A stretch of DNA of 64,000 bases, from assembly GCA_964609735.1 (NCBI GenBank), contig CAZSTE010000001.1, forward strand, positions 5,052 to 69,051. The letters run 5' to 3'. The position numbers and the translations under genes were made by a program. The DNA is from an uncultured bacterium. GTDB taxonomy: Bacteria > Ratteibacteria > UBA8468 > B48-G9 > DTJG01. Positions 1 to 60,800 of the stretch are shown piece after piece (the stretch's first letter is position 1; the number at the start of each line of letters is the position of its first letter). The notes beneath the pieces were generated by a model, which saw nothing but the letters and a program-made list of their open reading frames with translations, did no database searches and was not told where the DNA came from.

Positions 1-61
1 CGCATTGTATGCCGGCCGCCTTAAAACCAGAAGGAAAACAAACACCTGTTTTTTGTGGCAT
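1..61 (-). CDS. argJ: ArgJ N-terminal 20 codons. The gene continues off-window to the left; it is the same sequence as the start of argJ at 31393..31453.
   Basis: The reverse complement of 1..61 encodes [20 protein letters not shown], identical to the start of ORF 30254..31453. Confidence 0.6.
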   Translation of the reverse strand, partial: MPQKTGVCFPSGFKAAGIQC

Positions 62-70
62 ATATTTTTA

Positions 71-754
71 TTAAAATGATAATGAATCACAAATAGCAAG
101 AGCCAGCGACAGGTCTTGCCTTGTGGTAATTTTTATATTTTTCACATCGCCTGTTATTGCGTGAACAGGAAACCCCGCCTTCATACATAAGGATGCATCA
201 TCAGGAAAATCAGCAAGATTTTCTTTGTTAAGTTCAAAAGCATCTTCCAGGATTTTCTTTTTAAAACCCTGTGGGGTCTGGGCAATCTGCAGATTCTTGT
301 CAAAAATTGTTGAAAGAATTTTGTTGTTTTTCACTATTTTTACAGATCCATTAACAGGCGATACAGGCACACATGCTCCATATTCTTGTGTTGTTTTAAC
401 AATAGAAGAAATAAGATGTTCGCTTAAAAATGGTCTTGCTCCATCATGCACAAGAATGGTATCGCATTTTTTTGAGCAATGGCAAAGGCCATTTAACACA
501 GAACGCTCCCTACAATTTCCGCCGGGGACAACAGCAGTAATCTTACTAAAAGATTGTTTCCACATAGAAACCCGACGGGTATTGATGAATCTTTTTTGTG
601 TGACAACAACCATTTCATCTATCAAAGAGCTCATTGAAATTGTTTGCAAACAATATTCAATAACAGGAATGCCTTTTATCAAAAATAATGTTTTCGGGAT
701 CCTGCTTTTGAATCGGGTTCCCTTGCCCGCAGCAACAATAATACACCCTGTCAT
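71..754 (-). CDS. ispD: 2-C-methyl-D-erythritol 4-phosphate cytidylyltransferase
   Basis: 227 aa with an N-terminal IIVAAGKGTRF nucleotide-binding motif typical of IspD. It sits downstream of yacL as in the Bacillus radA-yacL-ispD synteny. Confidence 0.88.
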   Translation of the reverse strand: MTGCIIVAAGKGTRFKSRIPKTLFLIKGIPVIEYCLQTISMSSLIDEMVVVTQKRFINTRRVSMWKQSFSKITAVVPGGNCRERSVLNGLCHCSKKCDTILVHDGARPFLSEHLISSIVKTTQEYGACVPVSPVNGSVKIVKNNKILSTIFDKNLQIAQTPQGFKKKILEDAFELNKENLADFPDDASLCMKAGFPVHAITGDVKNIKITTRQDLSLALAICDSLSF

Positions 755-56497: not shown

Positions 56498-57882
56498 TAT
56501 AGGGTCACACCCATTCCATAATCCGCAATATCTGCTTTTATGGATTTTTTTTCATAAAGAATCTGTTTTAGCGTTTCAAGAGCGCCATCCTCGCCATGCA
56601 CAAGAAATGTGTTGGAAGGCGTATTTTCCACTGGCGAAAGCCACCAGAGTATTTCATTCTGGTCAGCATGGGAGGAAAACCCATTAATCTGAATAACATT
56701 TGCTTTTACTTCTCGATATTCTCCAAGAATTCTTACCTGTTTTTTGCCGCTTATAATTTCTTTGCCCAATGTCCCATTTGCTTGATAGCCAATAAACATA
56801 ATGGTGCTTTCTGGCCTGCTGATATTGGTGATAAGATGATGTTTTATTCTACCACCGGTGCACATTCCAGATCCGGCAATAATGATTACAGAACCCTTTA
56901 CATGATTAATGGATTTTGATTCTTCAACGCTTTCTGTTGGTCTGAGATGCGACATTTCAAAAGGATTATCATATTGGGTCTGCAGGGACGGGCTTAAAAA
57001 ATCTATATATTGTTTGAAGACCTCTGTAATTCTGATTGCCATAGGGCTATCAAGAAATATCCATAGATGCGGAATTCGATCATGCGCGAGTAAATGTTTT
57101 AGACAATATAAGAATTCCTGGGTTCTTTCTATGGCAAAACTTGGAACAACAATATTGCCACCTTTATTTGCTGTTTCTGTGATGGTTTCTGCGATGGTTT
57201 CATACGCTAAAGAATCCGCTTCATGGATTCGGTTGCCATAGGTTGATTCCATCACAAGATGGTCAATATGTGAGAATCGTTCAGGTTCCGGCAGAACATG
57301 CCTGTTTGGTCTTCCAAGGTCTCCTGTAAAAACAAGATTTTGGCCGGAAATGATATCCCTAAATTCCAATATTGTTGAACCAAGAATATGCCCTGCATTA
57401 TGACAGATGAGATTCAGGCCTTTTTCTATCTGAAAGGAATCATCATAAGGAATTTCTTCAAACCTGTCAAAAACATCATATGCCTGGTCTATTGTAAAAA
57501 GAGGTACAACAGGATGTTCTGGAACAATCCCTGTGCGCTGGTGCCTTTGTATTTTCTTTTCTGAGTCCTCCTGATAAATCTTGGCTGCATCAAGAAGCAC
57601 AATCTTTGTTATTTCAATTGTTGGCGCTGTGGCATAGATTTTGCCCTTAAATCCATCCCTTACAAGGCATGGGAGAAATCCGCAGTGGTCAAGATGCGCG
57701 TGCGTAAGAAATATCGCCTTAATAGTGGATGGTTCCACAGGAAATTTTTCCCAGTTTCTTGAAAGAAGCTGTCTTTCTTGATATATTCCGCAGTCAATAA
57801 GAAAATTTTTCTCATTATATGTGAGAAGATGCTTTGATCCTGTAACATTTCTGCTTGCGCCCAGGAATCTGATTGAAAACAT
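56497..57882 (-). CDS. beta-CASP MBL-fold hydrolase (copy 2)
   Basis: Identical to 25105..26490. Confidence 0.78.
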   Translation of the reverse strand: MFSIRFLGASRNVTGSKHLLTYNEKNFLIDCGIYQERQLLSRNWEKFPVEPSTIKAIFLTHAHLDHCGFLPCLVRDGFKGKIYATAPTIEITKIVLLDAAKIYQEDSEKKIQRHQRTGIVPEHPVVPLFTIDQAYDVFDRFEEIPYDDSFQIEKGLNLICHNAGHILGSTILEFRDIISGQNLVFTGDLGRPNRHVLPEPERFSHIDHLVMESTYGNRIHEADSLAYETIAETITETANKGGNIVVPSFAIERTQEFLYCLKHLLAHDRIPHLWIFLDSPMAIRITEVFKQYIDFLSPSLQTQYDNPFEMSHLRPTESVEESKSINHVKGSVIIIAGSGMCTGGRIKHHLITNISRPESTIMFIGYQANGTLGKEIISGKKQVRILGEYREVKANVIQINGFSSHADQNEILWWLSPVENTPSNTFLVHGEDGALETLKQILYEKKSIKADIADYGMGVTL

Positions 57883-57884
57883 TT

Positions 57885-60800
57885 TTATTTTTCCTTGAAC
57901 ATATCAACAAGTATTTCGCTATAAGGTTTTGATGGTTTGGATATTTGTCCTTTTTCATCAGCCCAGACAACCCAGTAGTAAAGTTTTATGCCCGGCCGCA
58001 ATCCATATATATGCTCCCCACTTTTTGCGCCATTTGGGGTCATATTGATTGCGCCTCTTCCATCAGCATATGGTCCAACCCAGATAAAATATCTGGATGC
58101 CTGTTTCATTTCCTTGAAATAAACAAAAACATTTGTTCCATCCGCACCCCAGGAAGGCGGTTGGAGTTTGATGATTGCGCTTGGTTCATAGATACCGGTT
58201 TTCTGCATCTGGGCAATTGGATTTGGGAGATCCGGTATATCCTTTGGTTTTGGCATTTTTATTTTACTTAATGCGATTGCTTTTTCTATTGCGTCTTCAG
58301 GACATTTGTATTCAGCATACATCTTGCCAAAACATACAATATCAGAAGAAACAGGTTGGACATCATTCACATAAAGAATATGTGTTCTTTGTTCCACAAT
58401 AATATTTTCAAGTTTCAATGGTAGATCAACAATCCCATCGCCATCCGCATAGCGCCACCATGTTGTTCCATATTTTCTGAAGTTATCATAGCCTTCATTG
58501 CCGGGTAGTTCAAATGTGATATATCTCCATCCATCAAAATTAAAATAACTCCAGGAATGAACATCATCGCAATTCCACTGGTCCTTTGTTCCGATGCTTA
58601 GCCATCGTTCACCCTTGGCATCTCTAAGACAATAAACAACTCTGCCCCAATCGCTTGCCCCCTTTACCCATAGTCCTATTGCTGATGGAGCGCCTGGAAG
58701 CATAACGGGATGACTTGGTTCAAGGATTGCATACCACGGCATAAGTTGATGAATTTTTTCCTGTTTTTCCAGTTTTGAAACAAGAATATTTCCAAAAATT
58801 TCATCTGTTTGGATTGAGGAAGTAAATCGTCCTTTATATCTAAATGTATCAAAATTATTGGTTTCATAAATCATGTTTCTGTTTTCACTATATTTCCACG
58901 AGCCATCTCCTAAATCCGCAACAGGAATTGCATTTTCCGCAGGTTTTAAATCAGAATGGGTTGGAGTTCCGGCTTCAACATTTACAATCTCGTTTTTTGT
59001 TGCGATATAGGTTACAGATGAATCAATGATAATGGTAATCTTTTTATCAGTGGTGTTGAAAATGGTTGTATTATTCATAACATCGGTTACAGGTATTTCT
59101 CCGTCATGCGCGAATGTAAGCGAAACAGGTCTTTGGCCCCTTATCGTCCACAAGGTATAGATGTTTCCTTTTGTGCCTTTAAATTTTAGACAGAAGCTTG
59201 TAAGGGAACCTGTGGAAAGCCATTTTTCAAATGTGGCATTATTCAATTTATCAGTCATTGTTGCATATGCCGCGTATGCCGGTTTTGGATCGCAGTATGG
59301 AATTCTTCTGAATATGCCGCAACCACCATAGTGTTCGGCGCCATAATCATTGCCGCAATCAAACGCAAACCATCCAGAATAAAATTTTTTAACCCCGTAT
59401 GCCATGCTGATGAGCGTCCATCTATTGTAAATATCCATCTGTTCTTTCCAGGAGCATGCACCTATTTCTGTTGGAACAAAAATACCTTCACAATATCGTA
59501 GGTCTGGTTCTGGAATTCCTGCCTTTTCGTATTCTTTTCGTAACTCATAAAGCCTGTGCACACTGATCTGATGAAGCTGTTGTTCGGGTAATCTTTCAAA
59601 TCCGCATATATCAAGTCCAGAGCCGTCTATCAGTTTTTTTGGGAATCCTGCCCGCAGAAGTGGAACAATAAAAAGCGGATCTCCCCACGGAATCAAAATT
59701 TTTAATTCTGGCCAGGTTTCTCTGATTGCTTCCGCAGCGCATTTTGCTGTTACAAAATGCATCCTTATTCGTTTAATCTCATCATCTGTTGGTTGATATG
59801 GCTCTTCTCCCCAGTATTCCGGATAATTTCCGGCTGTCATTCTGTTGCTGATGGATGGCTCAGGAAAGAAAAAGACATTATCCGGTCTATAATTTTCTGG
59901 AACAGCGTTACGGACCCTTGTGTATGTTTCAATAACCTTCTTTTTATAATCATCATACATCGTCTGGTTGTATGGTTGTTCCGCTGCCCATTCCTGTGGA
60001 TTTACATCCCATGCGCCAGCAGGAATTCGTGCCCAATGGTTTTTCACGTATTCGTTGTTTTCCGCGCCCTGTGGCAAACCGATGCTTGTTCGTGCGCCAG
60101 CCATTGTCATCAAACGGATGTGATGGTCTGCTTTTGGAGTATAAAGCGCGCCATGATAACTCCAGTATCCAAAAAGTGTGGATTTGCCATCCCATTTTTC
60201 TGTTCTTGTATCCGGGGCGAGTAACACAAATGAACGGGTTTCACTCCATACATTATCATCTATTTGAAGACTTGCGATAATCTGATACCAGCCATAACGT
60301 TTTGCTGGGATGCTTAATTTAATGTTTTCAGAGTCTTGCTTTGCAACACGGATATCCTTTTCAATGACGATGTTATCTTGTTTATCATAACTTGCCGCTG
60401 AAAGCTTAAGTTTTCCGATTATGTCATTTTTCCAGCTTGAAATCCTCACCGTATAAGAGGGTGTTTCCGGGGATGTCCATACATGACCGAATCTGTCAGG
60501 ATTTATTGAAAAATCAAATCCGCTTTTTCCTAGTGTTACAGCATAAACATGCACAGACGACGGAAGTCCTGCCTGATGCCAACCATATATAATCGGGTCA
60601 GGATACGACCTAAATTGAACAACCTTTTTTGTTAGTTCAAGTTCAAAAATATCAAGGTCTGAAAAAGAAGATAGTTTTCCCTTATCAAGGGGAATTTTTA
60701 CCAGCCAAAGGTTTGCCTCTTTTCCGTTTGAAAGAAGTACAGGGAATTGCGTGGATGTACTGGCAGTTTTTGTGAAAAGGGGCACCTCTGTTTCAAAATT

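What the first reader, a model, noticed from the sequence alone, without database searches (positions are those of the whole stretch)
1..60483. Identical 31,392-bp head-to-tail tandem duplication carrying about 30 genes, including essential single-copy loci
Sequence 1..29091 reappears at 31393..60483 with no mismatch I could find. All ORF translations are identical, and spot-checked nucleotide lines match up to a single divergent base at 29092 (g) versus 60484 (t). The period is 31,392 bp. The repeat unit (29092..60483) runs from just downstream of dnaJ to the middle of a 1353-aa secreted-protein gene. It includes dnaB, radA, rpsF-ssb-rpsR-rplI, groESL, mlaFED, ispD, argJ and dnaJ. Zero divergence over 29 kb means a very recent gene-amplification event (tandem amplification under selection for dosage of something in the unit) or an assembly artefact such as a chimeric long read or an unresolved repeat. 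It cannot be a simple over-extended circular contig, because the sequence after copy 2 (60484 onward) differs from the sequence after copy 1 (29092 onward).
Basis: seen in the sequence. Interest (0 to 1): 0.8.

Follow-up and report, generated by a model that had tools for sequence, protein, structure and literature searches.

The report
31-kb tandem duplication in a digester MAG
A 31.4-kb block of about 31 housekeeping genes is written twice, head to tail and base-for-base identical, in a 71.6-kb metagenome contig of an uncultured anaerobic-digester bacterium; it is most likely a genuine but ordinary recent segmental duplication carried by part of the population, and only read-level data can rule out an assembly artefact.

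Summary
Window 1..29091 equals 31393..60483 with 0 mismatches, period 31,392 bp. The layout is A(1-29091) B(29092-31392) A(31393-60483) C(60484-64000).

B-A and A-C are native joins. Eight or so independent contigs of the same species (99.5-100% identity) show only the single-copy order uvrB-B-A-C.

The only novel join is 29091|29092. It links the interior of a 1353-aa gene to codon 12/13 of uvrB, out of frame, with 0 bp microhomology and no flanking repeat.

The source is a 71,595-bp NCBI contig. It also carries an intact uvrB to the left and unique genes to the right. This excludes an untrimmed circular overlap and a contig-concatenation boundary.

The join sequence itself was found nowhere else. 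However, a contig of a second MAG (GCA_029552755.1, MEGAHIT-like) ends exactly at 29092, as expected from an assembly-graph branch at this join.

Estimates: real segregating tandem duplication about 0.6; artefact about 0.3. It is a known kind of event, and the interest is modest.

The parts
1..29091 (.). Segment A, copy 1. It is cut by the window start and runs from the 5' end of argJ to the interior of the 1353-aa gene.
   Evidence: Identical base for base to 31393..60483.
29092..31392 (.). Segment B. It holds the first 12 codons of uvrB (29093-29128, minus strand), dnaJ (29134-30249, minus) and most of argJ (30254-31453, minus).
   Evidence: It is collinear with related contigs L001, L002, L092, L099 and L100 down to exactly 29092. 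argJ runs across 31392/31393, so B-A is a native join.
31393..60483 (.). Segment A, copy 2. Genes: ispD, a TRAM-domain protein, radA, mlaD/F/E, dnaB, rplI, rpsR, ssb, rpsF, a flavoprotein, a class-III aminotransferase, ychF, an FMN reductase, an amidohydrolase, a LysE exporter, a transglutaminase-like protein, a GFO/IDH oxidoreductase, groES-groEL, acylphosphatase, queF, an AP-endonuclease-2-fold protein, a 655-aa hypothetical protein, an epimerase, a beta-CASP MBL hydrolase, and the 3' 866 codons of the 1353-aa gene.
29080..29103 (.). The novel join A-end|B-start, between 29091 and 29092. This is the only non-native adjacency in the window.
   Evidence: The 24-mer across it occurs once in the window and in none of the 103 fetched loci. 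There is 0 bp of microhomology with the native partners X-end and C-start. No repeat flanks the unit.
60472..60495 (.). The native join A-end|C-start, inside the intact 1353-aa gene.
   Evidence: It is crossed without a break by L003, L008 and L010.
26493..29091 (-). A 5'-truncated copy of the 1353-aa gene. It lacks the promoter, the signal peptide and about 487 N-terminal codons. The longest ORF is 26493-29057 (GTG start, 854 aa).
   Evidence: An in-frame TAA at 29094-29096 in B closes the frame. The exact 854-aa product is on record on the same 71,595-bp NCBI contig as the full-length protein.
57885..61946 (-). The intact 1353-aa gene. It has an N-terminal signal-peptide-like sequence and no Pfam family.
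   Evidence: Genes of the same length are present in L008 and L010.
29054..29128 (-). A stub of uvrB. Its first 12 codons are fused out of frame to the interior of the 1353-aa gene, giving a 24-aa ORF (MERVFHLNARFK+LYGHPRKHPLIR).

Best explanation
The window shows a genuine 31,392-bp direct tandem duplication of a chromosomal segment. The segment runs from codon 13 of uvrB to about codon 488 of a 1353-aa secreted-protein gene. The organism is an uncultured Ratteibacteria/Omnitrophota-like bacterium from anaerobic digesters.

The ancestral order is uvrB(X)-B-A-C. One illegitimate, homology-independent exchange between sister chromosomes joined the end of A to the start of B. This gave X-B-A|B-A-C.

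Both breakpoint genes keep one intact copy: uvrB on the left and the 1353-aa gene on the right. The join carries only a dead 12-codon uvrB stub and a promoterless 3' fragment of the 1353-aa gene. The other 31 genes are doubled intact.

The duplication is probably young and present in only part of the population. Most sampled populations are single-copy.

Shown here: the exact repeat, the native versus novel joins, the blunt join, the unique flanks on the source contig, and single copy elsewhere.

Inferred: that the join exists in cellular DNA, how frequent it is, and the mechanism. Any dosage benefit is pure speculation.
For: (1) There are two exact head-to-tail copies with a single novel join.

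(2) The source contig is 71,595 bp. It carries both the exact full-length 1353-aa protein and the exact 854-aa truncated copy. It also carries an intact 668-aa UvrB that is not in the window, and the deacylase, an 89-aa protein and the acyltransferase to the right of the window, but not LytB or S1. This leaves about 4.4-5.3 kb to the left, which fits B (2,301 nt) plus the rest of uvrB (1,971 nt). The duplication therefore sits between unique flanks on one contig.

(3) Because the join is blunt, no assembler could have created it through shared k-mers. It must have been present in reads (inference).

(4) Contig JAKPDN010000196.1 of a different NCBI MAG, GCA_029552755.1, covers window 29092..40528. 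One end therefore lies on the very base of the breakpoint. If its sister contig is collinear to its unfetched end, the two overlap by exactly 141 nt, the pattern of MEGAHIT k=141 unitigs, where contigs end at branching vertices. The sister contig's other end, at 60404, is explained by a strain SNP at 60405. No SNP explains 29092: all four X|B contigs carry the same adjacent bases. About 34 contig ends were inspected, so the chance of one hitting either breakpoint exactly is about 0.002.

(6) Experimentally verified bacterial amplicons of 12-290 kb arise by illegitimate recombination with 0-5 bp of identity (PMC9997567). A blunt 31-kb unit is therefore within the normal range.
Against: The join sequence itself was found in no other contig. 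No reads or depth data are available.

Four independent contigs cross X|B and three cross A|C. One JGI contig (Ga0116245_10001980, 32,911 bp) crosses both without a break. The duplication is therefore absent or rare in most samples.

Perfect identity of the copies is also what loop traversal in an assembly graph produces by construction.

The support from GCA_029552755.1 is indirect: a contig end, not the join itself. That MAG may also derive from the same project or reads as the source.

The stretch left of the window is inferred, not seen.
Confidence: 0.6

Rival explanations
1. Assembly artefact. The genome is single-copy X-B-A-C. The second copy was written by the assembler, for example by traversing a loop in the graph that was closed by a spurious or very rare A-end-to-B-start link such as a library chimera, or by a scaffolding or curation error.
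For: The copies are identical over 29,091 bp, as expected if one graph edge was emitted twice. Every other assembly of the species is single-copy, and none contains the join. The contig is short, with only about 2-3 kb and 6-7 kb of unique flank, which is typical of a fragmented metagenome graph. MAG contigs in general carry more errors than isolate genomes (my own knowledge).
Against: A blunt join cannot arise from k-mer overlap, so it needs reads that contain it. Assemblers prune single chimeric reads. An independent MEGAHIT-type assembly breaks exactly at 29092, which implies that a second predecessor of B has appreciable coverage. Random chimeras rarely join two points 31 kb apart in direct orientation in one low-abundance genome. 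The specific artefacts that could be tested are excluded. An untrimmed circular overlap is excluded because the contig is 71.6 kb with unique flanks. A contig-concatenation boundary is excluded because both copies lie on one NCBI contig.
Confidence: 0.3
2. The A|B join is real but does not come from a two-copy chromosome. It could come from a 31.4-kb B-A circle, such as the excision product of a duplication or an extrachromosomal amplicon. It could also come from a higher-order array of three or more copies that the assembler reduced to two.
For: A circle, a duplication and a longer array all give the same assembly graph and the same single novel join (inference). Duplications are known to expand further and to segregate by recombination between copies (PMC9997567).
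Against: No replication or partition functions specific to an episome are present, and there is no integrase or att-like repeat. The reciprocal X|C join was seen nowhere. A non-replicating circle would be too rare to survive graph pruning.
Confidence: 0.07

Closest known systems
Spontaneous tandem duplication-amplification by homology-independent (illegitimate) recombination, for example the cat-gene amplicons of Acinetobacter baylyi ADP1 (Reams and Neidle; summarised in PMC9997567)
   Same: Both are direct head-to-tail repeats of a chromosomal segment tens of kb long (12-290 kb in A. baylyi, 31.4 kb here). Both have a single novel join with 0-5 bp of identity (0 bp here). The breakpoints fall inside genes, and the flanking copies stay intact.
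   Different: The A. baylyi amplicons were selected in the laboratory, verified by PFGE and junction sequencing, and usually expanded beyond two copies. Here the event is seen only in one metagenome contig, without read support, a known selective agent or a known copy number.
RecA-dependent duplications between long direct repeats (rrn operons, IS elements, REP) in Salmonella and E. coli
   Same: The product is the same: a tandem duplication that is unstable through recombination between the copies.
   Different: Those duplications have a repeat at each end and a hybrid repeat at the join. Here there is no repeat at either end.
Assembler-made concatemers or untrimmed terminal overlaps of circular replicons
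   Same: Both show perfectly identical direct repeats, an arbitrary breakpoint inside genes, and a size in the tens of kb.
   Different: Those artefacts place the repeat at the two ends of a replicon-sized contig, or repeat the whole replicon. Here the repeat is internal to a 71.6-kb chromosomal fragment with unique sequence on both sides.

Membership tests
Chromosomal tandem (segmental) duplication | Two direct, adjacent copies of one segment | tested here: met
   1..29091 equals 31393..60483 with 0 mismatches and a period of 31,392 bp.
Chromosomal tandem (segmental) duplication | Exactly one novel join (end of the unit to the start of the unit), with native unique sequence on both outer sides | tested here: met
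   The join 29091|229092 region is novel at 29091|29092, while B|A and A|C are native. The right flank is seen in the window. The left flank is inferred from an intact UvrB on the same 71,595-bp contig and from the length budget.
Chromosomal tandem (segmental) duplication | Single-copy, collinear arrangement in close relatives | tested here: met
   X|B is present in L001, L002, L099 and L100. A|C is present in L003, L008 and L010. One contig crosses both joins. The radA-TRAM-ispD-argJ-dnaJ-uvrB order is conserved in three related species.
Chromosomal tandem (segmental) duplication | The join is present in the DNA: reads spanning it, about 2x depth, or independent detection | tested here: inconclusive
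   No reads are available. The join was not found in other contigs. The public-collection scans were uninformative because a positive control failed. There is indirect support: a contig of GCA_029552755.1 ends exactly at 29092.
Repeat-mediated (RecA-dependent) duplication | Homologous repeats (IS, rrn, REP) at both ends of the unit and at the join | tested here: not met
   There is 0 bp of shared sequence at the breakpoints. No repeat family lies at 29092 or 60483. uvrB sequence (X) has no match in the window.
Untrimmed overlap of a circular contig | The repeat occupies the two termini of a replicon-sized sequence, with nothing unique outside it | tested here: not met
   The source contig is 71,595 bp. 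It has unique genes outside both copies: UvrB on the left, and the deacylase and acyltransferase on the right.
Boundary between two concatenated contigs | The sequences on the two sides of the join belong to different records | tested here: not met
   The exact 854-aa truncated product, the 1353-aa product, DnaJ and UvrB are all recorded on one contig of 71,595 bp, longer than either half of the window.
Mobile element (ICE, prophage, transposon) present in two copies | Integrase, transposase or other mobility genes, and terminal repeats or att sites | tested here: not met
   The content is housekeeping genes. There are no terminal repeats and no tRNA gene.

The most novel reading that the evidence does not exclude
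The duplication is real and is kept at high frequency in a natural digester population by selection for dosage of something in the unit. Candidates are groESL, dnaB/ssb/radA, the Mla system and the LysE exporter. That would make it an in-situ example of adaptive gene amplification in an uncultivated candidate-phylum bacterium, caught segregating between samples.
Probability: 0.2. Interest if true: 0.5.

Novelty: new member of a known kind. Interest (0 to 1): 0.3.

Why it matters
If real, this is a natural example of a large homology-independent tandem duplication segregating in an uncultivated population. Short-read metagenomics normally collapses such variation, and it is the raw material for dosage adaptation and new genes. 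It could be followed across digester samples with one junction PCR.

If it is an artefact, it is a useful warning. It inflates copy counts of 'single-copy' marker genes (dnaB, rpsF, rpsR, rplI, groEL, radA), and so raises the apparent contamination of the MAG.

Either way, it reveals no new biological mechanism.

Tried and rejected
(1) I scanned public DNA collections for the join and for the adjacent 24-mer on the A side: genome contigs, metagenome contigs and viral contigs. All returned nothing. The 24-mer is known to be present in JGI contig Ga0116245_10001980 (L003), so the metagenome scan fails a positive control and its negative result carries no weight.

(2) I could not fetch the source contig. 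The look-up of encoding contigs has no record of it. Only its length and part of its protein content could be recovered, through exact-sequence look-ups.

(3) I tried to find the join through proteins. No ORF of 30 aa or more spans it. The 865-aa edge-partial product expected from a contig ending exactly at the A end is not on record.

(4) A repeat, IS or microhomology origin is rejected.

(5) A circular-overlap artefact and a contig-concatenation boundary were both considered seriously at first. Both were rejected once the 71,595-bp contig and its flanks were established.

(6) A strain SNP as the reason for the contig end at 29092 is rejected. That explanation does work for the neighbouring end at 60404, which has a SNP at 60405. 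It does not work at 29092, where all X|B contigs agree and the adjacent base is the second position of a conserved proline codon.

(7) JGI contig Ga0116245_10001980 starts exactly 140 nt upstream of the breakpoint. I could not connect this to any k-mer logic, and it is left unexplained.

(8) Look-ups of PfkB and flavoprotein variants gave no further contig end at a breakpoint.
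Full report
**Observation**

A self-comparison of the window at offset 31,392 shows one uninterrupted identical run of 29,091 bases, 1..29091 = 31393..60483. The first mismatch is at 29092 (G) versus 60484 (T), and the sequences are unrelated afterwards. Every ORF of at least 90 aa recurs at +31,392. The window can therefore be written as A(1-29091) B(29092-31392) A(31393-60483) C(60484-64000). 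The match is cut off by the window start, so the first copy is probably longer than what is visible.

**Which joins are native**

- argJ (30254-31453, minus strand) runs across 31392/31393, so B-A is native.
- The 1353-aa gene (57885-61946, minus strand) runs across 60483/60484, so A-C is native.
- In copy 1 the 1353-aa gene is cut at 29091.

Exact-protein look-ups retrieved many contigs of the same species (99.5-100% nucleotide identity, no indels) from JGI, ENA and NCBI assemblies (alignments).

- L003, L008 and L010 cross A|C.
- L001, L002, L099 and L100 run through dnaJ, follow the window down to exactly 29092, and then continue into a different sequence, X.
- X is uvrB. Its ATG lies 5 nt after the dnaJ stop, and the breakpoint falls after codon 12 (MERVFHLNARFK|PAGDQ...).
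- JGI contig Ga0116245_10001980 (32,911 bp) carries X-B-A-C in one piece, in single copy.
- The order radA-TRAM-ispD-argJ-dnaJ-uvrB is also conserved in three related species with 79-84% DnaJ identity. The closest is named 'candidate division TA06 bacterium ADurb.Bin131'. Other relatives are labelled Ratteibacteria or Omnitrophota.

The ancestral state is therefore single-copy X-B-A-C. The only novel adjacency is A-end|B-start at 29091|29092.

**Anatomy of the join**

- A-end (...GGGATGTCCATACA) and X-end (...GGTCGCCTGCTG) share no terminal bases. B-start (GTTTAAATC...) and C-start (TGACCGAAT...) share none either. Microhomology is 0 bp.
- No repeat family, IS element or tRNA gene lies at either end of the unit. 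X has no match in the window.
- On the minus strand, the 12-codon uvrB stub reads out of frame into the 1353-aa gene and stops after 24 codons. In the 1353-aa gene's own frame, a TAA at 29094-29096 closes the frame, and the first start codon is GTG at 29057, giving an 854-aa ORF.

The join therefore creates only two dead fragments. The other 31 genes are doubled intact.

**Where the window comes from**

Exact-sequence look-ups show that both the 1353-aa protein and the 854-aa truncated product are recorded on a single NCBI contig of 71,595 bp. That contig also carries the D-Tyr-tRNA deacylase, an 89-aa protein and an acyltransferase. In the collinear JGI contig L009 these lie up to 2,301 nt beyond the window end. 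The contig does not carry LytB or the S1 protein that follow them.

A full-length 668-aa UvrB (P0086), which starts with the intact N-terminus, is recorded on a contig of the same length. uvrB is not in the window, so it must lie in the 4.4-5.3 kb to the left. That space fits B (2,301 nt), the rest of uvrB (1,971 nt) and at most 1 kb more.

The source is therefore [<=1 kb]-uvrB-B-A|B-A-C[about 6-7 kb], a complete tandem duplication between unique flanks. The left part of this layout is inferred, not read.

Two trivial explanations are removed by this result:
- a boundary between concatenated contigs.

**Is the join real?**

Reads cannot be examined here. The join 24-mer occurs in none of the 103 loci fetched. 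Scans of the public collections found nothing. The metagenome scan also missed a 24-mer that is known to be in a JGI contig, so those negative results are uninformative.

Three considerations favour a real join.

First, a blunt join cannot be produced through k-mer overlap. Whatever assembler was used must have seen reads that contain it.

Second, contig JAKPDN010000196.1 (11,437 bp) of another NCBI MAG, GCA_029552755.1, covers window 29092..40528 (17 mismatches), so one end lies on the exact base of the breakpoint.
- Its sister contig JAKPDN010000046.1 (20,017 bp) starts at window 60404. If it is collinear to its end, it overlaps the first contig by exactly 141 nt. That is the signature of MEGAHIT k=141 unitigs, which end at branching vertices. 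This step is an inference from the lengths, because the last 3 kb of that contig were not fetched.
- The sister contig's end at 60404 is explained by a strain SNP at 60405.
- No such SNP exists next to 29092. All four X|B contigs are identical there, and the adjacent base is the second position of a conserved proline codon.
- A vertex starting at 29092 with two predecessors, X-end and A-end, is what a population containing the duplication would give.
- With about 34 contig ends inspected, an exact hit on one of the two breakpoints by chance has a probability of about 0.002.

Third, verified bacterial amplicons of 12-290 kb arise by illegitimate recombination with 0-5 bp of identity (PMC9997567). 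Neither the size nor the blunt join is unusual for a real event.

Several points count against a real join, or at least limit the claim.
- Perfect identity of the copies is uninformative, because loop traversal writes the same edge twice.
- Most samples are single-copy, and one contig crosses both native joins without a break.
- The supporting MAG may not be independent of the source sample.
- The frequency and true copy number are unknown.

**Verdict**

| Explanation | Confidence |
|---|---|
| Genuine, recent, homology-independent 31,392-bp tandem duplication in part of the population | about 0.6 |
| Assembly artefact: loop over-traversal or a chimeric link | about 0.3 |
| Real join from a B-A circle or a longer array | about 0.07 |

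Nothing in the unit points to a mobile element. Which gene, if any, is under dosage selection cannot be said.

This is a new instance of a well-known kind of event. It is worth one PCR or one read-mapping run, but it is not a discovery in itself. A practical consequence is that the doubled markers (dnaB, rpsF, rpsR, rplI, radA, groEL) will count as 'contamination' in MAG quality checks.

Noticed in passing
window 57885-61946 (-), with neighbours 63013-63228 (-) and 63002-63180: The 1353-aa protein has a signal-peptide-like N-terminus and matches no Pfam family. Two genes away lies a stand-alone 71-aa type-I dockerin protein. Its two dockerin repeats show up as an 86-nt direct repeat with 72% identity (family D2). 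This may be a cell-surface or cellulosome-like pairing in a candidate-phylum bacterium.
   Followed up: partly
The DNA search scope metagenome contigs: The scan found 0 matches for a 24-mer that is present in JGI contig 3300010338|Ga0116245_10001980 (L003). That sample is apparently not covered by the collection, so negative results from this collection for this organism mean nothing.
   Followed up: yes
L001/L091 (JGI Ga0116245_10001980), contig start: This single-copy contig begins exactly 140 nt upstream of the breakpoint at window 29092. I could not relate this number to the k-mer logic of any assembler. It may be coincidence.
   Followed up: partly
window 30815-30832 (argJ) and 57942-57975 (3' end of the 1353-aa gene): Contigs from several independent assemblies end within a few bases of each other at these two places: L002, L099, L100 and the calculated start of DAONKI010000001.1 at the first, and L005, L006 and L007 at the second. 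This suggests recurrent strain-variation branch points.
   Followed up: no
window 52593-52731 and 53564-53826: SNPs between strains are clustered here, inside the AP-endonuclease-2-fold gene and the 655-aa hypothetical gene, with 6-8 differences within about 150 nt. The rest of the 31 kb has about 1 SNP per kb. These could be recombination tracts or diversifying selection.
   Followed up: no
window 61698-64000 vs L009, and 61736: JGI sample 3300010338 holds two strains. Contig ..4100 is 100% identical to the window, including G at 61736. The overlapping contig ..1980 has T at that position and about 0.1% divergence from the window elsewhere. A window-like strain therefore co-occurs there with a single-copy strain.
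   Followed up: partly
window 63570-63604: The window has about 35 nt that are absent from L008 (GCA_035406085.1), between the dockerin gene and the URO-D gene.
   Followed up: no
window 46175-47359 (-), 53379-55346 (-), 48032-48397 (+): Three conserved ORFs of 394, 655 and 121 aa inside the unit have no Pfam family.
   Followed up: no
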